Positions 7,977-28,397 of a stretch of 64,000 bases of DNA are shown piece by piece. Under the pieces are notes generated by a model. That model saw nothing but the letters and a program-made list of their open reading frames with translations, was not told where the DNA came from and did no database searches. This DNA is from Oligoflexia bacterium (GTDB lineage: Bacteria; Bdellovibrionota; UBA1018): NCBI GenBank assembly GCA_014376785.1, contig JACMQW010000018.1, positions 9,536 through 73,535 on the forward strand, in the 5' to 3' direction. Position 1 is the first letter of the stretch. Every line of letters begins with the position of its first letter. The position numbers were made by a program, and so were the translations under genes.

Positions 7977-8014
7977 GGAAGGGTTGGATGGGTTAATCCC
8001 ATCCAACCCTTTCC
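7977..8014 (+). terminator. Perfect 16-bp hairpin downstream of fliC1
   Basis: GGAAGGGTTGGATGGG-TTAATC-CCCATCCAACCCTTCC is followed by TCGTTTGT, a weak U-tract. It sits in a convergent intergenic region. Confidence 0.45.
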
Positions 8015-18194: not shown

Positions 18195-18356
18195 AGCGGA
18201 GAACTTGATCATCCCTCCCGGACCGCGTATTCGAAGGGAAACACATTCTGAGTCGAAGGAAGTGGGTGAAAATCCCACACTGTCCCGCAACGGTGATGAG
18301 ACGACGCTCTCTCAGTCCGGTCTACGACAAAGAATTCATCCCGAGGAGGAATCGCT

Positions 18357-18869
18357 ATGACCACTGAGAGAGAAGTAGAGCCCGAGCCGAAATTAGAACC
18401 GATCCCTTCCGAGCCGCTCCGGATGGTGGAGATGGTTTTTCCAAATAACACGAATCATTACGGAACGCTTTTCGGAGGAAAAGTACTCGATCTGATGGAC
18501 CGAGCAGCATTTCTCGCGGCTACCCGATTTGCCCACCAGACGATGGTCACTGCCAGCACCGAGCACATTGATTTTTTCACGCCCGTGAAAAGTGGCCAAA
18601 TCGTGGAACTCGTCGCAAAGGTCGTTTTTACCGGTAAGACTTCACTTACCGTAAAGGTCGACCTTTTTTCGGAAGACGCCATCCGAAAAACCAGAGTGCA
18701 TGCGAGCCAGGGTTACTTTCACATGGTTGCCGTGAACGAAGAAGGCAAGCCAGTAAGAGTTCCAGAACTCACTCTCGAAAATGAGCATGACCGAGCCGAG
18801 TGGCAGGAAGTGAAAGCACTCCGGGAATTTAGAAAATCACGCACTCTCAAAAAAGGAAAATCGATATGA
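18357..18869 (+). CDS. Acyl-CoA thioesterase (hotdog fold, YciA-like)
   Basis: MVEMVFPNNTNHYGTLFGGKVLDLMDRAAFLAA matches the acyl-CoA hydrolase family. Confidence 0.8.
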   Translation: MTTEREVEPEPKLEPIPSEPLRMVEMVFPNNTNHYGTLFGGKVLDLMDRAAFLAATRFAHQTMVTASTEHIDFFTPVKSGQIVELVAKVVFTGKTSLTVKVDLFSEDAIRKTRVHASQGYFHMVAVNEEGKPVRVPELTLENEHDRAEWQEVKALREFRKSRTLKKGKSI

Positions 18870-19501
18870 AAACCGAAAATCAAGCACTGCATTGGCGATA
18901 TGCCACCAAAGGATTCAACCCAGAAAAGAAAGTGCCCGAAGAAAAATTAAAAGAGATTCTAGAGACGGCTCGCATGGCTCCGACCTCTTATGGCCTTCAG
19001 CCATTCCACGTGACCGTGGTTAAAGATCAGGCCTTAAGAGAGAAACTCAAGCCCTTCTCCTGGAACCAGGCGCAAATTACGGATTGTTCACACCTTGTTG
19101 TTTTCCAATCGCGAATCAGAATCGATGAAAAACTCGTGAATGACTACATCGAGCTCATTTCGAAAACGCGTGGCGTTCCAGTGGCAACCCTCGAAGGATT
19201 CAGAGGCATGATGCTTTCGACTGCGGCAAAGGAACCAGGTTCAGCTACTTCTCAGGAATGGGCAAAGCGCCAAGCCTACATCGCGATGGGGTTTCTCCTT
19301 CATTCGGCGGCGATGCACGAAGTAGATGCTTGCCCGATAGAAGGCATCGATGGGGCGGAATACGATCGCCTCCTGGGTGCGGATGCAAAAGGACTCCAGA
19401 CCGTCGTAGTCGTCGCGCTCGGACACCGAGCTGAAAGTGATGCTTATCAAAACTTGAAGAAGGTTCGCCAACCAGTCGAACAGTTTTTCTCGTTCGTTTA
19501 A
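18866..19501 (+). CDS. NAD(P)H nitroreductase family protein
   Basis: ARMAPTSYGLQPFHVTVVKDQALREKL is typical of nitroreductases. It overlaps the upstream stop by 4 bp. Confidence 0.8.
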   Translation: MKTENQALHWRYATKGFNPEKKVPEEKLKEILETARMAPTSYGLQPFHVTVVKDQALREKLKPFSWNQAQITDCSHLVVFQSRIRIDEKLVNDYIELISKTRGVPVATLEGFRGMMLSTAAKEPGSATSQEWAKRQAYIAMGFLLHSAAMHEVDACPIEGIDGAEYDRLLGADAKGLQTVVVVALGHRAESDAYQNLKKVRQPVEQFFSFV

Positions 19502-19875: not shown

Positions 19876-21519
19876 ATGACGACTCGCCAATTTTCGCTCC
19901 GCTCGAAACTTTTAGCCGCTTTTAGCGTCCAGCTTTTCTTCCAACTGGCTCTGGGAACGATCGGTCTCGTCTCTCTCAATCGGGTGGTTCAGAACTACAA
20001 TCACGTGCTGGATGTGAATATGCAGAAGGATGAGCTCCTCGCAAACTTTCGACTTCTGCAGAAGGATGTCGTGATCGCGGTGAAAAGCGTAAAAGGTGCA
20101 TTGGGAAATTCTGAAGCGCTCAGTGGGCTAGAGAAAGCGGTTCAAGCAGCCGAAACGGAATTTTCCGTTGGAGCTGCAGAATTCAAGAAATTACCTTCGA
20201 GCGAATTCGAAGAAAAGACCTGGCTCGAAATTGAAAAAAGTTGGCAGGATCTGGTTGCCTTAGGCAACACCATGATCATCGAGGGGCGAAAAGCTTCACT
20301 CGATGATGGGCGCGCATTAGATCAGCTCTTCAATGTAGATTTCGAAGCACGTCGAAAAAATTTACGGACGCCGCTGGAAGCTTTGAGAGATTACGAAGCA
20401 AAAGACTCTGAAGAATGGGGAAGCTCAGCTGAGCAAACCGCAGAAAAAGCTCGAAAAATCATGTTTGCTGCTCTCTTCTGTGGCCTCGTTTTCGGAGCGA
20501 TCGCCGGAATCTACAATACCAAATCGGTTCATTCACTTCTCATCAGAATTGCGAACGCTCTCCAAAGCAATACCGATGCGGTCGATACCGTCGCTGAAGA
20601 AATTTCACACTCGAGTGGAGATCTTGCATCGAGCGCTAACCGGCAGTCCTCCGCCCTCCACCAAACGGCCGCCGCAGTGGAACAAATCACTTCGATGATT
20701 GGAAAGACGGTGAGCAACGCTTCAGACTGTCAAATTTTATCCGAAAAAAGTGCGCAAACCGTCGAAAGTGGCCAACACGCTTTAACGTTATTGCTGGAAG
20801 CCATTCGTGAAATTGACTCCAGTAATGCTGAAATTAATCTTCAGATCCAATCCAGCAATCACGAGTTTGCAAACATTGTGAAACTCATTGGTGAGATTGC
20901 GGCAAAAACGCAGGTGATTAACGACATCGTTTTTCAAACAAAACTCCTCTCTTTTAATGCTTCGGTCGAAGCTGCCCGTGCCGGCGAACATGGGAAGGGC
21001 TTTGCGGTGGTCGCAGAGGAGGTCGGAAAACTTGCTAGCATGAGTGGGTTTGCGGCGGATGAAATCTCAAAAGTTCTTGAAGAAAACCTTCAAAAAGCAG
21101 AATCAGTCACAAAAGACGCCACCTCTCGCGGCGAACGTCTCACGAAAGCAAGTCAGACGAAAATCGCGGTAGGGTTAAAGCTTGCGTCCGAATGCGATGA
21201 GAGCTTTCGGTCCATCGTATCAGGGACCGAAGATGTGAAGTCTTTGGTTTCAGAAATTACGGCTGCGTCCTCTGAACAAATGAACGGGGTGGGCGAAGTT
21301 TCGAAAGCGGTCAGTGATCTCAGTGCTTCAGCGCAGGGGAATAGCGATATTTCGCACTCCACTGCGAGCGCGGCAAAGGACCTTCACGCTCGAGCCGCAA
21401 ACCTTTCTGCAGTCGTTCGTGAGCTTTTCCTAGCTCTTCATGGTCAATCGAGCCAGACGGCGCCTGCGAATGAGAGTTCGTTGAGCTCTGAGCACGTGAG
21501 TTCTCTCAGTGTGGGGTAG
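19876..21519 (+). CDS. Methyl-accepting chemotaxis protein
   Basis: An N-terminal TM is followed by a periplasmic 4HB-like domain, a second TM and then the signaling domain with [29 protein letters not shown]. 547 aa. Confidence 0.9.
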
Positions 21520-22699
21520 TCAGTGTCGCACAGTTCGAAGTCGTCTCAGCTGGGAACCAAAGTTGCATTTTCGCAAGAAAATCGGCCCCGGTGGTGGACG
21601 AACAATTCCCTCCACAATGACCGTCTTTACTCTTTAGGTAGAGGCGAGAGCTGGAAGCTGACCCGGTGGACACCAGTCCTTTTGCGATAGCGTAAGCCGT
21701 GCTGAGCGTACTGTTTCCGAACTGAGGTCTGCTTCCGGTCGTGTGACAGCTCGCGCAGAGATTTTTTGCGAGCGGCCACACGGTGGCTGCGTAAGCGTTT
21801 TGTTTTTCAGTGTTCGAACACGCCACCATCGCGGGTGCGGGCACAGAGCTCGGAACTGGACTTGGAACTGATGTCGAAACAGGCGCCGGAACGGTGCTCG
21901 GAGCAGGGGGTGTCACGACTGCGGCCACACCCACTTGAAGTTCAAACCCGAGAGCGTAACCGCTCACAATCCCGCTGATTCGAAAATCTCCGGCCGTATC
22001 ACGCATCACATAAAGTGGTTTCGATCCGGTTATTTTAGAGAGCGTGAGAGTGTTAGCTGCGACTCGACAACTGGAATCTGAGAAAGTTCCAGAACCCGTA
22101 AGTGCGACGATCAAATCTCGGGGTGGCAGGGTGGCGATTCCATTAGCAGCGTAAACAACCTCGTAGCTCACGCAGGCATTCGCCGTCTGCATGACGGATG
22201 CGACTTGTTGGAGCGCGCTCCCATTCAGTCTCAGCTGTGCTCCGCTTGTGGGCACGCCTCCGGCTGAACCTGGGCAGCTGGTCGAGATGCTCTCCGCACT
22301 CATCCAAGTCGTCAATCCGGTCATCAGTGCAGAGCCATCTCTTTGGCACACCGGGCTTCCACAGTGACCATCCTTCGCGTGCATGTAGATGAGAGAAGTG
22401 TCGAGGCTCGCGGAATTCACGAGAGTTTTGGTTGCTGCATAAGCCGTCGAAGGATCCGCGACCGCGAAAGTCGGCGCGGTTCCCGCACCGTGGCAACCTG
22501 CGCAGTTTGTTTTCAAGTACGGATAGACGGCGGTTTGGAAGGTGGCGAAACCATTCGGGCAGCCCGCGTCCTGGGCGTGTACGATACCGTAACTCGCGAG
22601 CGGCGCATTCTGCACTTTATCGAGTCCGTAACATCCCGTCAGAACATTCAGGACGATGAAAGTGAAGGTAATTTTTCTGCCGTTTTGAGTCTTTCCCAT
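21506..22699 (-). CDS. Lipoprotein with two CxxCH heme-binding repeat domains (Planctomycete-type cytochrome c-like, PSCyt1-like)
   Basis: The lipobox is LTGC. The internal duplication is [16 protein letters not shown]...[10 protein letters not shown] and [16 protein letters not shown]...[37 protein letters not shown] linker separates them. Confidence 0.55.
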
Positions 22700-22873: not shown

Positions 22874-24133
22874 GTGGGCACACGCAACTTCAAACTCTTG
22901 ATCGTCTTTTTCTTATTCTTTTCCGCCGTAACCACTCAAGCGGAATGTCGCAATGTGGATTTGAACCGAGAGAGTCCTTTAAAGGAAATGCCGGTGCTTG
23001 ATCAGGATGGGACGGGGACCTGTTATGCCCAGGTAGCAGCCCAACTGATCAACTTCAAGCTCAAGACCAACCGATCGAATTTCCAGGTGTCGTCGATCGA
23101 TCTGGCTTTGGTCGGCGCCACTTCTTCGCGTTTTTTCGACAGGGACTCGCTAACGGCTGGTCAGGTGGCTCCTCTCATAGAAGCAGCCGGGAAATATGGA
23201 GTTGCTTCGAAAGCTTGTGTGGACTCTGAAATCAAACGATTCCACCAAGACGCGGGACTCTCCACCGAACAGTTTACGGCGATTCTCGAATCGATGAATG
23301 AAAGTTCATCCTATTTTTTAACTCGAGCTGCCGAAAGACGCTTGGCCGAGTTCGACATCAGCCAAAATCCTGATATTTCAAGCTGCCGTTACAAGGCCAC
23401 TCTCGATGTCCTCGATCGGCGCGGCCTCTGGGGAAGTTCGGTAACTGAAGTTTTGAATCAGGTCCTCTACCGTTGTCGAAGCGAGAGAAAGAAAATTTCA
23501 AATTTAGATTATGACTCGCTGACTATTGGAACAGACGCCGAGATGATGAATGAAGTGGATAGGATACTCGATCGGAAGATTCCAGTCAGTGCCGGCTTAT
23601 GTGCGCCGATTTTACTCGAGTCTAAAGAGTATTCGGGACTGGCTGGAAAGTCTCCGCCTTTGGACCGGGGTTCGCTTGATAATTTCACCAAAGAAAAATG
23701 CGAGCCTCACCAAACCCTGATCGTTGGCAGAAATCAGTTTTCGGATGGTAGTTGTCGGTATTTGGTACGGAATTCCTGGGGAGGAGCGTGGAAAACCGAC
23801 GGTTTAACCTGCGCTTGCAAGACGAGCGATGGCGTCTACCACTCAGACTGCAAATCTGCGGAGAGTGGCATAAAAGTAAAAGAGAAACAGATTTCGGAGC
23901 GGATTTCAGAATCGAATCGGCTAAGCGATCGCTATGAAGCGCTGAAAATCCGCCATCCCGAAGAAGCAAAGAAAGTTCTAAGGGAAAGTAAGATCCAAAA
24001 AATGAAGTTTAATATTGATTTAGATGAGCTTAAAAAATTGCGAGAGGAATACGAACAACGGGCATATGTCGGTTGTTGGATCGATTCTAAAAATCTGAAG
24101 AAAAATGTTTTTCACGTGGGCTCACTGAAGTGA
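22874..24133 (+). CDS. Secreted papain-like (C1 family) cysteine protease with C-terminal coiled-coil extension
   Basis: GTG start and a signal peptide ending TTQA. The catalytic Cys context is DQDGTGTCYAQVAAQ. A His-containing HQTLIVG and VRNSWGGAWKTDG (the NSWG motif) follow. The last ~100 aa are charged (KVKEKQISERISESNRLSDRYEALK...). Confidence 0.65.
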   Translation: MGTRNFKLLIVFFLFFSAVTTQAECRNVDLNRESPLKEMPVLDQDGTGTCYAQVAAQLINFKLKTNRSNFQVSSIDLALVGATSSRFFDRDSLTAGQVAPLIEAAGKYGVASKACVDSEIKRFHQDAGLSTEQFTAILESMNESSSYFLTRAAERRLAEFDISQNPDISSCRYKATLDVLDRRGLWGSSVTEVLNQVLYRCRSERKKISNLDYDSLTIGTDAEMMNEVDRILDRKIPVSAGLCAPILLESKEYSGLAGKSPPLDRGSLDNFTKEKCEPHQTLIVGRNQFSDGSCRYLVRNSWGGAWKTDGLTCACKTSDGVYHSDCKSAESGIKVKEKQISERISESNRLSDRYEALKIRHPEEAKKVLRESKIQKMKFNIDLDELKKLREEYEQRAYVGCWIDSKNLKKNVFHVGSLK

Positions 24134-24534
24134 TCGGAAAAATCATGAGAGGCGCAGTTTTCACACTTTTGTTTTTGGGCTTCGCAGGGGCAGCAGAGTC
24201 TGTTGGCTTACCTAAGTGTGAGCAGCCGTTCGTTGCTTTCTTGGAATCTGGGGAGAAGGTTCGCTTCTGTGATTTTGAAAGTCTGATGGTCTCAGAAAGT
24301 TGCATCCGAGATGTTGCTGCTTGTCGCGAACTCGTTGCCCTGAAAAAAAATCTCTCTAAAATAAAAGAAACGTTTCGATCCGGGGAATATGCGGCAAAGC
24401 GAAATCCGGGTTCGAAGATTTGCGACCTCCTCGGCTGGAAGGTGGATATGGCAACGGGTTACGATGAGAGCCAGATTTGCGTCTGTGTGGCGCCATTAGG
24501 ACTTCGAGTAATTTGTAGTTCGATGCTTCCCTGA
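24130..24534 (+). CDS. Small secreted Cys-rich protein overlapping the C1 protease stop (possible cognate inhibitor/chaperone)
   Basis: GTG at 24130 overlaps TGA (GTGA). An alternative ATG lies at 24145. The signal is MRGAVFTLLFLGFAGAA. 8 Cys in ~115 aa. Confidence 0.45.
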   Translation: MIGKIMRGAVFTLLFLGFAGAAESVGLPKCEQPFVAFLESGEKVRFCDFESLMVSESCIRDVAACRELVALKKNLSKIKETFRSGEYAAKRNPGSKICDLLGWKVDMATGYDESQICVCVAPLGLRVICSSMLP

Positions 24535-24678
24535 TGTGTGGATGCTTAGTTAGCCAAACTCGTTGTTTCCGGGAATGAACGTCTCTTAGAGTTTCACGCC
24601 GAAAATTATTGGAGCCGTGATCTTTGAGGTGAAGGTGTATTGATTTTCAATCGATGCCTTTTCCAATATTGTTTTCAT

Positions 24679-25965
24679 ATGAAAATGAAGTCCCAAATTT
24701 GCTTTGGAATCATTCTGAATTCCGTCGCTTTTCCATTTTTATCCTGGGCATCCGACCCATTAAGAATCCAATCGCCAGAGGTAGGGGATTGCGCAATGAT
24801 AGCCGGGCCCGCTAATCTGCTCCAGCAGCCGGATGGAAAAATTTTTAAGTCCCTGCCGGACTCTAATCGATTCAGAATCGTAAAACAGGAAAGTCCCTGG
24901 ATTAAAATTGAATCCAGAACGAACGACAATGCCCATTTTTGCTCTAACGATGATCAGGAAACGGATGGACCCGAAGAATCAATCAGTGGTTGGATTCATG
25001 CAAAAAGTATTAAGAAGCTGACAACCAGCCAGCTATTCAAAGAGTTTCCCCGAGCTCTCAGCTTACGTCTTGAACGGGACTTGAGAAGCTCAGAGCCGAT
25101 GTGGACTGCTGTAGTGGACAAAAAGGAATGCGAATGTTTCCGCAGTTCTTCAAGCTATGGGCCGAGTTCAGAATCCTCGAATAAGGTTTACACTCGTTCG
25201 ACGAAATTGAGCGGGCTTTGCAAAAGCACCACAGATTTTGTTTTCTGTCAGGACACTCACCTGCTTCCGGCACAAGTCTGGGCTTCTACTCTTTGTCCAA
25301 GAGCTTGCCTCAAATTGAGCGATGCTCCGTTGCTCGCACTCGAGAAAAAAATTCAGCGACTAGAACTTTTAAGTCGATCAGCAAGAGGAGATTACAAATT
25401 AAAAGTATCGCCATTTACTTGGAAAACTCTCGAGCGAGAGTATCCGAATTGGCTGGCCGCGAATTACACGACTTTTGGATATTCGCTAAATGAGAAGCTT
25501 CAACGTGCGATGTATGATCGGATATTTGACCTGGAACTGGCGACATTTTTTCATCGGGGAGAGATTAGCTTCCGGGGCAAAAAGCGAAATGTTGAGATCG
25601 TAATTTTTTTTGAGACGACGAAAGATTTCATCGCAGAGAACCCCAGTTGGATCGCGACAGATGTTGGGTCTAGCGAGTTACTTTGGAAAGAAAAATTGCA
25701 TCTGGAATCAAGAGGTTTCATGAAGGGAAAAGCCCCTCAGTTCTGTATCTTTCCCGAGACGAAAAGTTCTGAACACCCTGACTTCCTAGTCTACGTTCAG
25801 AACCAGATGGGCGACGGATGGTCGGATTTAGGACTGATCACCACGGATGCGGTAGGTAAAATTCAGAATGTTGACAAGAGTACTGCAGAGGACAAGCTAC
25901 TCAGCGGTTCTTTGGGGAATTGGATTCATTTGATCGATCAATGTAAGCTTTTTGTTACTCAGTAG
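24679..25965 (+). CDS. Secreted hypothetical protein
   Basis: ATG at 24679 (MKMKSQICFGIILNSVAFPFLSWA, signal peptide). 429 aa, Cys-rich, with no recognisable catalytic motif. Confidence 0.5.
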   Translation: MKMKSQICFGIILNSVAFPFLSWASDPLRIQSPEVGDCAMIAGPANLLQQPDGKIFKSLPDSNRFRIVKQESPWIKIESRTNDNAHFCSNDDQETDGPEESISGWIHAKSIKKLTTSQLFKEFPRALSLRLERDLRSSEPMWTAVVDKKECECFRSSSSYGPSSESSNKVYTRSTKLSGLCKSTTDFVFCQDTHLLPAQVWASTLCPRACLKLSDAPLLALEKKIQRLELLSRSARGDYKLKVSPFTWKTLEREYPNWLAANYTTFGYSLNEKLQRAMYDRIFDLELATFFHRGEISFRGKKRNVEIVIFFETTKDFIAENPSWIATDVGSSELLWKEKLHLESRGFMKGKAPQFCIFPETKSSEHPDFLVYVQNQMGDGWSDLGLITTDAVGKIQNVDKSTAEDKLLSGSLGNWIHLIDQCKLFVTQ

Positions 25966-26464: not shown

Positions 26465-26549
26465 TGGTGCCCGGGACTGGACTCGAACCAGCATGCTGTT
26501 AGGCGCTCGCCCCTGAAACGAGTGTGTCTACCAATTCCACCACCCGGGC
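26465..26549 (-). tRNA. tRNA-Leu (anticodon CAG), class II with long variable arm, CCA encoded
   Basis: The reverse complement is GCCCGGG-TG-GTGGAATTGGTAGACAC-A-CTCGT-TTCAGGG-GCGAG-CGCCTAACAGCAT-GCTGGTTCGAGTCCAGT-CCCGGGC-A-CCA. It has a perfect 7-bp acceptor stem, the anticodon loop has U33 with anticodon CAG and G37, and a TTCGA T-loop. Confidence 0.85.
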
Positions 26550-27628: not shown

Positions 27629-28397
27629 GTGGGCGGGGAAAATCACGAAGGTTACTCACATGCGCTGATGAAAGTATGGAGCGGAAAACGCAGATTAGAA
27701 AATGCGCCCGCCCGAAGCTCCCTCGCTCGTCTCCGAAAATGGATCTCCTACCTCTTCTTCAAAGATCATTTCGAGAAACTCGTAAAGAAAGCGGACGCTG
27801 TTAGATCGACCTATTTAGGGCTTCGAATCTACGCCATCGACGGGCAGATGTTGACGCTTCCCAAATCAAAAGAAATCACGCAGGCGGGCTTCACGGGCGT
27901 GAGCAAGGATCTGAGATTTACGAACCGAGCGCGAGAGCCTGGTGATTTACGACCGACTGTACTTTGGAGTGAGGCTCGTGAAGGCGCACTACCGCCGCGG
28001 TAATCACTTTTTATTTCGCCTGAAAAAGAACGCGAATAGGGAGATTGCGGCGTTCTTTCAAGACCCGGCCCGGCCGACGACCGCCACGTTTATGCTCGGA
28101 GAAAAGTTTGAGGTGAATCTCGTACGCATCTTTGACGCGAAAAACAGAAGGCACGACGTCTTCGCAACGAGCTTGCCGATCGATTTCTTGAAGCCGCATT
28201 TAATTGCGAAACTCTACCGGCTCCGCTGGGAAGTGGAGACCTCGTTTCTAGAGCTCACGGGCATCACGAAGGCAGAACAGTGGCATTCGAAATCCGTGAA
28301 CGGCATCCTGCAGGAGCTCTACGCGAAGTTTTGGCTCATTAACTACACGAAGCTTCAGATTCACGCTCAGACCCAGAAACCGAGGGGTTCTATATGA
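27629..28397 (+). mobile_element. IS4-family transposase remnant (frameshifted, 5'-truncated)
   Basis: Two overlapping ORFs lie in different frames (27629-28003 and 27942-28397). The second carries the IS4 signature LYRLRWEVETSFLELTG. Combined they give ~255 aa against ~400 aa for an intact transposase. Confidence 0.65.

What the first reader, a model, noticed from the sequence alone, without database searches (positions are those of the whole stretch)
22874..24534. Papain-like protease gene with a 4-bp-overlapping small secreted Cys-rich ORF: candidate protease-inhibitor or chaperone pair
The C1-family protease (Cys in GTCYAQVAA, His in HQTLIVG, NSWG motif) ends in an unusual ~100-aa charged coiled-coil tail. 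Its stop codon overlaps the GTG of a 134-aa signal-peptide protein with 8 Cys (an alternative ATG is 15 nt later). Staphopain-staphostatin-type pairs have this layout, so this could be a dedicated inhibitor or maturation factor. It is followed by another secreted 429-aa protein of unknown function.
Basis: inference. Interest (0 to 1): 0.5.

Follow-up and report, generated by a model that had tools for sequence, protein, structure and literature searches.

The report
Propeptide-less papain protease with conserved exported partner
A secreted papain-type cysteine protease that lacks the usual self-inhibiting propeptide is translationally coupled to a small, exported, disulfide-rich protein; the two genes stay adjacent in 16 of 17 related loci, so the small protein is probably the protease's dedicated inhibitor or latency factor, of a type not yet described.

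Summary
ORF 22874-24133 encodes a divergent but complete C1 (papain-family) peptidase. Gln44, Cys50 and His279 are invariant and Asn300 nearly so in 78 relatives. The AlphaFold model (pLDDT 94) best matches cathepsins S, L and V, ananain and bacterial C1 enzymes. Its stop codon overlaps, as GTGA, the start of a 134-aa signal-peptide protein with 8 cysteines.

I examined 17 independent related loci with enough flanking DNA. The small gene is adjacent to the protease in 16. It lies downstream in 13 and upstream in 3, with a 4-nt overlap in 9 and a gap of 0-21 nt in the rest. The two proteins' distance matrices correlate (r = 0.79).

Best reading (inferred, not shown): a co-exported stoichiometric inhibitor or latency factor that replaces the missing propeptide in trans. 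The third gene is not part of the module.

The parts
22874..24133 (+). Gene for a secreted, propeptide-less, divergent C1 (papain-family) cysteine peptidase, 419 aa, GTG start
   Evidence: ORF. Pfam Peptidase_C1 at 20.7 bits, equal to the cut-off. 39 of 78 relatives hit PF00112. Model pLDDT 94, pTM 0.90. Foldseek best hits are cathepsins S, L and V, ananain, Lpg2622, Pd_dinase and xylellain. Family profile hits cathepsin K at E 5e-7.
22874..22942 (+). Signal peptide (about residues 1-23, ...TTQA|EC)
   Evidence: Hydrophobic N-terminus conserved in relatives. Read from the sequence; no signal-peptide predictor was run. NCBI's start at M39 (P0002) omits it.
23003..23023 (+). Active-site motif Q44-D-G-T-G-T-C50 (oxyanion-hole Gln and catalytic Cys, papain spacing Q19...C25)
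   Evidence: Q44 and C50 invariant in 78 sequences. Aligned to PVKNQGQCGSC25 of mature cathepsin K.
23699..23782 (+). C276-x-x-H279 ... R-N300-S-W-G: catalytic His, Asn and the papain NSWG motif
   Evidence: H279 invariant and N300 at least 90% conserved in 78 sequences. This is the Pfam PF00112 match region, 274-319.
23849..24055 (+). Variable insertion: charged antiparallel helical hairpin (residues 326-394)
   Evidence: DSSP on the model gives H326-360 and H362-394, pLDDT above 94. Absent or short in L009, L016 and L019 and in many representatives of about 350 aa.
24062..24127 (+). Conserved C-terminal strands (VGC401W...N411) that close the papain fold
   Evidence: E397-404 and E412-418. 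C401, W402 and N411 are at least 90% conserved.
24130..24133 (+). GTGA: start codon of the partner overlapping the protease stop codon (translational coupling)
   Evidence: Sequence. The same 4-nt overlap occurs in 9 of 16 paired loci, including loci with reversed gene order.
24130..24534 (+). Gene for the exported, Cys-rich partner protein, 134 aa (mature about 110 aa, 8 Cys)
   Evidence: ORF. Homologues adjacent to the protease in 16 loci. Model pLDDT about 90 for the mature part. No solved structural analogue.
24130..24195 (+). Signal peptide of the partner (about residues 1-22; A-G-A|A, no lipobox)
   Evidence: Read from the sequence. Low pLDDT N-terminus. Leaders are present in nearly all aligned partners.
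24400..24501 (+). DUF333-like C-terminal module of the partner (residues 91-124: NPGSxxC helix plus beta-hairpin)
   Evidence: PF03891 E 0.11 for the window protein. 11 of 19 partners match at E up to 1, best 2.1e-5. The precomputed Pfam call on the L026 partner is also a weak DUF333 hit.

Best explanation
A two-gene, translationally coupled module. Gene 1 encodes a Sec-exported papain-family (C1) cysteine peptidase that has the full Gln-Cys-His-Asn catalytic apparatus but no propeptide. Gene 2 encodes a Sec-exported, disulfide-rich protein of about 110 aa: an N-terminal beta-sheet, a long helix and a DUF333-like C-terminal unit.

Proposed mechanism, inferred and not shown:
1. The partner is made in fixed ratio with the protease.
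2. It meets the protease in the periplasm.
3. It binds the protease tightly and keeps it latent, acting as an inhibitor or self-protection ('immunity') factor that supplies in trans what the propeptide supplies in cis in other C1 enzymes.
4. The protease is later released or the partner is removed.

The lineages that carry the module and can be named are Oligoflexia and Bacteriovoracaceae (Bdellovibrionota). A role in the exported hydrolase arsenal of predatory bacteria is therefore plausible but untested.
For: Shown:
(1) The protease is a C1-fold enzyme with conserved catalytic residues.
(2) It has no propeptide. Profile position 39 aligns with residue 15 of mature cathepsin K, so the mature N-terminus falls right after the signal peptide. 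Most of the 140 or so representatives have the catalytic Cys at about position 40-50.
(3) The partner is adjacent in 16 of 17 independent loci with enough flank, starting either from proteases or from partners.
(4) Adjacency survives inversion of gene order (L015, L016, L024), with a 4-nt overlap in 9 of 16 loci and gaps of 0-21 nt in the rest.
(5) No other neighbouring gene is conserved.
(6) The protease and partner identity matrices correlate, r = 0.79, with 0 of 5000 Mantel permutations reaching this value.
(7) Both proteins carry leader peptides and conserved cysteines, so they share an oxidising compartment.
(8) Two ordinary C1 peptidases picked up as weak hits (L010, L011) have no partner nearby.

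Precedent: co-transcribed cognate inhibitors of papain-fold proteases, encoded upstream or downstream and some with leader peptides, are known for Bacteroides Bfp/Btp-Bfi/Bti, staphopain-staphostatin and SpeB-Spi (PMC3462683). Bdellovibrio encodes a self-protection protein for its predatory endopeptidases (PMC4686830).
Against: - No binding or inhibition was tested, and no complex model could be made.
- The partner model matches no known inhibitor fold, so inhibition rests on context alone.
- One family member, L027 (P0079), has no partner next to it.
- Tandem or second protease copies share one partner, or none that could be seen: L024, and L014, where the second copy is cut by the contig end.
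- Net-charge complementarity between partners is weak (r = -0.40, n = 13).
- The mirror-tree correlation is also expected from simple co-inheritance.
Confidence: 0.45

Rival explanations
1. The partner is a trans-acting foldase or 'intermolecular propeptide'. It is needed for correct folding or disulfide formation of the propeptide-less protease in the periplasm, with no lasting inhibition.
For: The propeptide, which in C1A enzymes is both folding catalyst and inhibitor (established knowledge), is absent. Coupling is stoichiometric. The protease has about 10 conserved non-catalytic Cys. A CxC motif (C117-V-C119) occurs in one partner clade.
Against: The CxC motif is lost in the second clade (TFC). 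There is no thioredoxin-like or I29-like fold. AlphaFold models the protease confidently on its own, which is a weak argument. This rival overlaps the main explanation rather than excluding it.
Confidence: 0.2
2. The partner is a non-inhibitory subunit or adaptor that targets, anchors or sets the substrate specificity of the protease. It would form a heterodimeric enzyme.
For: Strict adjacency and co-divergence fit any obligate complex. The DUF333-like module has no known function.
Against: The partner has no lipobox, membrane anchor or recognisable binding domain. Precedents for small co-transcribed partners of papain-fold proteases are inhibitors (PMC3462683).
Confidence: 0.15
3. The partner is a substrate or cargo processed by the protease, or a functionally unrelated secreted protein that is merely co-transcribed.
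For: Processing proteases are often encoded next to their precursor substrates (established knowledge for C39/bacteriocin systems).
Against: The partner is a compact folded domain with 6-8 conserved Cys and its own Sec leader, not a leader-core peptide. Linkage is kept across family-wide divergence (mean pairwise identity 28%; window versus relatives 19-40%) and across gene-order inversion, which argues against accidental co-transcription.
Confidence: 0.1

Closest known systems
Papain family C1 (C1A) peptidases: cathepsins S, L, K and V, ananain; bacterial Lpg2622, xylellain, Pd_dinase
   Same: Same fold (Foldseek E about 5e-7, target-normalised TM about 0.6). Same Gln/Cys/His/Asn residues, NSWG motif and PV.NQ...C motif. 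The Pfam PF00112 threshold is reached.
   Different: Only 13-16% identity. About 100 extra, mostly helical residues lie between Cys and His. There is an optional helical-hairpin insertion and a different cysteine pattern. No I29-type or any other propeptide is present. It forms its own family of at least 140 clusters at 50% identity, all unnamed.
Bacteroides Bfp/Btp C10 proteases with Bfi/Bti inhibitors (PMC3462683)
   Same: A Gram-negative, papain-fold cysteine protease is co-transcribed with a small protein of about 120-140 aa. That protein is encoded upstream or downstream and itself carries a leader peptide. Stoichiometric co-expression is proposed there as self-protection.
   Different: Those proteases are C10 (SpeB-like) lipoproteins with propeptides, and their partners are predicted staphostatin-like beta-proteins. 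Here the protease is C1 without a propeptide, and the partner is alpha/beta with a DUF333-like module and no structural match to solved chains.
Staphopain-staphostatin (C47/I57-I58) and SpeB-Spi
   Same: The inhibitor gene lies immediately beside the protease gene in one operon (PMC3462683).
   Different: Those inhibitors are cytoplasmic and have no leader. Staphostatins are 8-stranded beta-barrels and Spi resembles the SpeB propeptide (PMC3462683 and my own knowledge). None of this applies here.
Periplasmic inhibitors of secreted proteases (AprI/Inh, MEROPS I38) and Bdellovibrio Bd3460 self-protection protein (PMC4686830)
   Same: The logic is the same: a small exported protein, encoded with a secreted hydrolase, protects the producer's own envelope.
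   Different: The targets differ (serralysin metalloproteases; DD-endopeptidases) and so do the folds (beta-barrel; ankyrin). There is no homology. The I38 details are from my own knowledge.
DUF333 (Pfam PF03891)
   Same: The C-terminal 35 residues or so (NPGSxxC...GG/GWKV...GS..C) match the DUF333 model in 11 of 19 partners. It is the only family that recurs among them.
   Different: The window protein scores 13.2 bits against a 25-bit cut-off. The N-terminal Cys-rich sheet and the long helix lie outside DUF333. DUF333 itself has no established function in the papers I could read.

Membership tests
Peptidase family C1 (papain family, Pfam PF00112) | Catalytic Cys and His, with the oxyanion-hole Gln and orienting Asn, in papain order and spacing | tested here: met
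   Q44, C50 and H279 invariant and N300 at least 90% conserved in 78 sequences. Aligned to the equivalent residues of cathepsin K.
Peptidase family C1 (papain family, Pfam PF00112) | Papain-like two-lobe fold | tested here: met
   Model pLDDT 94. All top-50 Foldseek PDB hits are C1 enzymes, with probability 1.00.
Peptidase family C1 (papain family, Pfam PF00112) | Score at or above the Pfam gathering threshold | tested here: met
   Window protein 20.7 bits, equal to the cut-off and covering only residues 274-319. The L029 relative scores 38.7 bits over profile positions 14-208. 39 of 78 relatives match at E up to 0.01.
Peptidase family C1 (papain family, Pfam PF00112) | N-terminal inhibitory propeptide (typical of C1A zymogens, not strictly defining) | tested here: not met
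   The signal peptide is followed directly by the equivalent of the mature N-terminus. Some relatives carry an unrelated DUF1573 domain instead.
Peptidase family C1 (papain family, Pfam PF00112) | Peptide-bond hydrolysis | not testable with these tools
   Needs an enzyme assay.
Staphostatin-type inhibitor (MEROPS I57/I58) | Gene adjacent to and co-transcribed with its target cysteine protease | tested here: met
   4-nt overlap in the window, and adjacency in 16 of 17 loci. Transcription itself was not measured.
Staphostatin-type inhibitor (MEROPS I57/I58) | Cytoplasmic location (no leader peptide) | tested here: not met
   Hydrophobic leaders with A-x-A sites in the window protein and its relatives.
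Staphostatin-type inhibitor (MEROPS I57/I58) | Eight-stranded beta-barrel fold, or sequence homology | tested here: not met
Chagasin / ICP (MEROPS I42) | Ig-like all-beta fold with NPTTG, GxGG and RPW/F loops | tested here: not met
   No Pfam hit and no structural hit. The NPGS motif here caps a helix.
DUF333 (PF03891) | Match to the family model above the gathering score (25 bits) | tested here: not met
   Window protein 13.2 bits, E 0.11. 11 of 19 relatives match at E up to 1, best 2.1e-5. This suggests a remote relationship but does not establish it; no profile-profile comparison with DUF333 could be run.

The most novel reading that the evidence does not exclude
The small protein founds a new family of proteinaceous cysteine-protease inhibitors with a previously unseen fold. 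It acts as a detachable, trans-encoded substitute for the propeptide in a clade of papain-like enzymes whose nameable carriers are Bdellovibrionota. Because its C-terminal module is remotely DUF333-like, this would also give a first functional lead (hydrolase binding or inhibition) for the widespread periplasmic DUF333 domain.
Probability: 0.35. Interest if true: 0.7.

Novelty: new variant of a known kind. Interest (0 to 1): 0.55.

Why it matters
Papain-family enzymes are normally kept latent, and helped to fold, by a covalently attached propeptide. This is a sizeable, unnamed bacterial clade that has none. There were 393 hits at E up to 1e-3 to the fused two-protein query among 1.84 billion cluster representatives. 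Instead of a propeptide, these enzymes almost always travel with a small exported partner.

If the partner is an inhibitor, three things follow:
- It is a new inhibitor family and fold for clan CA proteases.
- It is an example of a latency function moved from cis to trans.
- It gives a handle on how predatory bacteria shield their own envelope from exported hydrolases.

It would also give a testable hypothesis for the uncharacterised DUF333 domain. If the partner is not an inhibitor, this is simply a well-defined, conserved two-gene module of unknown role.

Tried and rejected
- **Word-indexed homologue search.** It found only self hits and one relative for the protease, and only a self hit for the partner. 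A search with a fused protease+partner alignment saturated at 8000 candidates and added nothing.
- **Fused paired alignment for structure prediction.** The tool also returns no coordinates, so an interface could not have been inspected.
- **Fold search against afdb50.** The library is not installed, so similarity of the partner to predicted DUF333 structures is untested.
- **Literature leads.** The 'DUF333' hits were mostly DUF3335/DUF3338 or bare table entries. The Bdellovibrio 'BdpK' hit is a serine protease and irrelevant.
- **NCBIfam.** No model matches either protein.
- **Charge complementarity of the pairs.** r = -0.40, n = 13, not convincing.
- **Promoter and terminator scan.** Nothing above shuffled expectation around the pair.
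- **Third gene as part of the module.** Rejected: no tblastn match in any related locus and no family hit.
- **Lipoprotein or anchor reading of the partner.** Rejected: no canonical lipobox. The first Cys usually sits at +2 or +3 after an A-x-A site.

Full report
**1. Observation**

The ORFs are as described.
- ORF 22874-24133 (+, GTG start, 419 aa) carries DQDGTGTC50YA, C276EPH279QTLIVG and RN300SWGGAW.
- Its TGA overlaps the GTG of ORF 24130-24534 (134 aa, 8 Cys). An ATG lies 15 nt further on.
- ORF 24640-25965 follows, with an ATG at 24679.
- The record is a MAG annotated 'hypothetical protein' for both genes (P0002, P0001).
- NCBI starts the protease at M39, which removes a leader that is conserved in relatives. 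The GTG start at 22874 is therefore the better call.

**2. The protease**

Sequence evidence:
- Pfam gives Peptidase_C1 exactly at threshold, over the His/Asn region only.
- I ran an exhaustive HMMER scan of 1.84 billion cluster representatives with a fused protease+partner query. It found 393 proteins at E up to 1e-3 and 139 at E up to 1e-10.
- About 140 of the best 150 are proteases of about 350 aa. The other 8, including the window's own P0001, are partner-like proteins of 115-129 aa.
- In an alignment of 78 proteases, C25, Q44, C50, C201, C243, H279, C294 and G303 are invariant. N300, W402 and eight further Cys (C171, C276, C313, C315, C326, C401 among them) are at least 90% conserved.
- 39 of the 78 hit PF00112 on their own, best E 2.9e-8. 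The L029 relative hits it over nearly the whole profile at 38.7 bits.
- The family profile finds cathepsin K in PDB sequences at E 5e-7.

Structural evidence:
- The AlphaFold model from this alignment is confident: pLDDT 94, pTM 0.90.
- Every one of its top 50 Foldseek matches in PDB is a C1 enzyme: cathepsins S, L and V, ananain, and bacterial Lpg2622, Pd_dinase and xylellain. E is about 5e-7, target-normalised TM about 0.6 and identity 13-16%.

So this is a divergent clade of family C1 with an intact catalytic apparatus.

Two structural points matter.
- There is no propeptide. 'PVYDQDG.G.C' aligns with residues 15-25 of mature cathepsin K. The window sequence VDLN...MPVLDQDGTGTC mirrors papain's VDWR...VTPVKNQGSCGSC (papain sequence from my own knowledge). 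The predicted signal-peptidase site (TTQA|EC) therefore leaves an N-terminus equivalent to that of mature papain.
- Most relatives share this: their catalytic Cys sits at about position 40-50. A few instead carry an N-terminal DUF1573 domain.
- The 'coiled-coil tail' is a helical hairpin (residues 326-394) inserted before two conserved terminal strands. It is missing or short in many relatives, including some that have the same type of partner, so it is not needed for the pairing.

**3. The partner**

The one relative found by the word-indexed search, P0003 (BLASTP reports 30% identity to the window protease), is followed by a 126-aa ORF with the same 4-nt overlap. That ORF is 42% identical to the window ORF (E 2e-22).

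I then looked at more loci in three ways:
- scans of genome and metagenome contigs with the protease alignment;
- contig look-ups starting from partner-like representatives P0088, P0116, P0125 and P0133;
- contig look-ups starting from increasingly distant proteases P0026, P0052, P0017, P0150, P0079 and P0100.

A partner HMM run on six-frame translations gave the tally:

| Result | Loci |
|---|---|
| Partner adjacent (16 independent loci) | window, L001 group, L009, L012, L014, L015, L016, L019, L020, L022, L023, L024, L025, L026, L028, L029 |
| No partner (1 locus) | L027 |
| Order protease then partner (13) | all paired loci except the three below |
| Order partner then protease (3) | L015, L016, L024 |

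- The junction is a 4-nt ATGA or GTGA overlap in 9 loci and a gap of 0-21 nt in the other 7.
- No other neighbour is shared. Flanking genes include flagellar genes, rlmN-like, metG, ABC transporters and others.
- The window's third gene has no counterpart at any related locus.
- Pairwise identities of proteases and of partners correlate: r = 0.79, with 0 of 5000 Mantel permutations as high.
- Two ordinary C1 peptidases caught as weak hits (L010, L011) have no partner.

**4. What the partner looks like**

- Nineteen partners share six invariant Cys. Eight are invariant in the window's clade.
- Nearly all have a leader with an A-x-A-type site and no lipobox.
- The model (pLDDT about 90 for the mature part) has this layout:
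  - a three-stranded sheet (residues 34-55);
  - a long amphipathic helix (66-83);
  - a less confident loop;
  - a helix (93-101);
  - three strands (104-128).
- The only recurrent family signal is DUF333 over residues 91-124. It appears in 11 of 19 partners, best E 2.1e-5, but the window protein is below threshold. The catalogue's own weak call on the L026 partner agrees.
- DUF333 has no established function in the papers I could read.

**5. Mechanism**

Shown:
- an exported, catalytically complete C1 enzyme without a propeptide;
- an exported Cys-rich partner;
- tight, order-independent, often overlapping gene linkage;
- co-divergence of the two proteins.

Inferred:
- the two proteins form a complex in the periplasm;
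- the partner keeps the enzyme latent, supplying in trans the inhibitory (and perhaps folding) role of the missing propeptide.

The inference rests on two things. One is the known dual role of C1A propeptides (established knowledge). The other is precedent for co-transcribed cognate inhibitors of papain-fold proteases. Among these, the Bacteroides Bti proteins are exported and can be encoded on either side of the protease (PMC3462683). Bdellovibrio also has a self-protection protein for exported predatory enzymes (PMC4686830).

My confidence in each reading:

| Reading | Confidence |
|---|---|
| Inhibitor or latency factor | about 0.45 |
| Pure foldase | about 0.2 |
| Non-inhibitory subunit or adaptor | about 0.15 |
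| Substrate, or unrelated protein | about 0.1 |

Points against the inhibitor reading are the lack of any binding evidence, one partner-less member (L027), extra protease copies that share one partner or none that could be seen (L024, L014), and only weak charge complementarity.

**6. Comparison and novelty**

- The protease is a new, unnamed clade within a known family.
- The gene-pair logic is known from staphopain-staphostatin, SpeB-Spi and, most closely, Bfp/Btp-Bfi/Bti.
- New here are the combination of a C1 enzyme with no propeptide and the partner family itself, which has no solved structural relative and only a sub-threshold DUF333 link.
- I rate it a new variant of a known kind. Interest is moderate, and higher if inhibition is confirmed.

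**7. Limits**

- Taxonomy is known only for the window (nr name Oligoflexia, although one NCBI label says Cryobacterium) and for L009 (Bacteriovoracaceae). The predatory-lifestyle link is conjecture.
- Signal peptides were judged by eye.
- Transcription was not measured.
- No complex model could be produced.

Noticed in passing
window 22874-22990: The NCBI annotation (P0002, 381 aa) starts the protease at M39 (ATG at 22988). That cuts off the conserved signal peptide and the conserved C25/VDLN segment. Homologues support the GTG at 22874.
   Followed up: yes
window 24640-25965 (ATG at 24679): Leader-bearing protein of about 428 aa with no Pfam or NCBIfam hit and no counterpart beside the pair at any other locus. 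Its GC is 0.45 against 0.51 for the window. It is an orphan and not part of the module.
   Followed up: partly
window 26465-26549 (-) and 27629-28397 (+): A tRNA-Leu(CAG) is followed by two overlapping ORFs, 27629-28003 and 27942-28397; the second has a DDE_Tnp_1 transposase domain and the first has no family hit. This looks like a frameshifted IS remnant just downstream of the protease region.
   Followed up: partly
window 18245-18335 (+): AdoCbl riboswitch hit barely above the Rfam gathering score (50.7 against 50 bits). It lies upstream of a 4HBT thioesterase (18357-18869) and a nitroreductase-family gene (18866-19501).
   Followed up: no
window 21506-22699 (-): Secreted 397-aa protein with two CxxCH haem-binding motifs and sub- or near-threshold cytochrome c hits. 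It converges on the MCP gene (19876-21519) and overlaps it by 14 nt.
   Followed up: no
P0001/P0002 source names: The same MAG proteins are labelled 'Cryobacterium sp.' in one NCBI name and 'Oligoflexia bacterium' in nr. The window's 51% GC, chemotaxis gene and Bacteriovoracaceae relatives fit Oligoflexia and not a high-GC actinobacterium.
   Followed up: partly
L024 1006-3601; L014 6806-7330; L025 2501-3865: Variants of the module. L024 has one partner followed by two tandem protease paralogues. L014 has a second protease copy 5 kb away, cut by the contig end. L025 and several representatives carry an N-terminal DUF1573 domain fused to the protease.
   Followed up: partly
L027 2501-3592: The only family protease examined without an adjacent partner. 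It still scores 276 bits against the family HMM. Whether a partner is encoded elsewhere is unknown.
   Followed up: partly
alignment A6 (partners), window residues 89-95: The motif GG-K-NPGS is conserved in many partners and superficially recalls the NPTTG and GxGG loops of chagasin. In the model it caps a helix, and there is no fold similarity, so I treat it as coincidence.
   Followed up: partly
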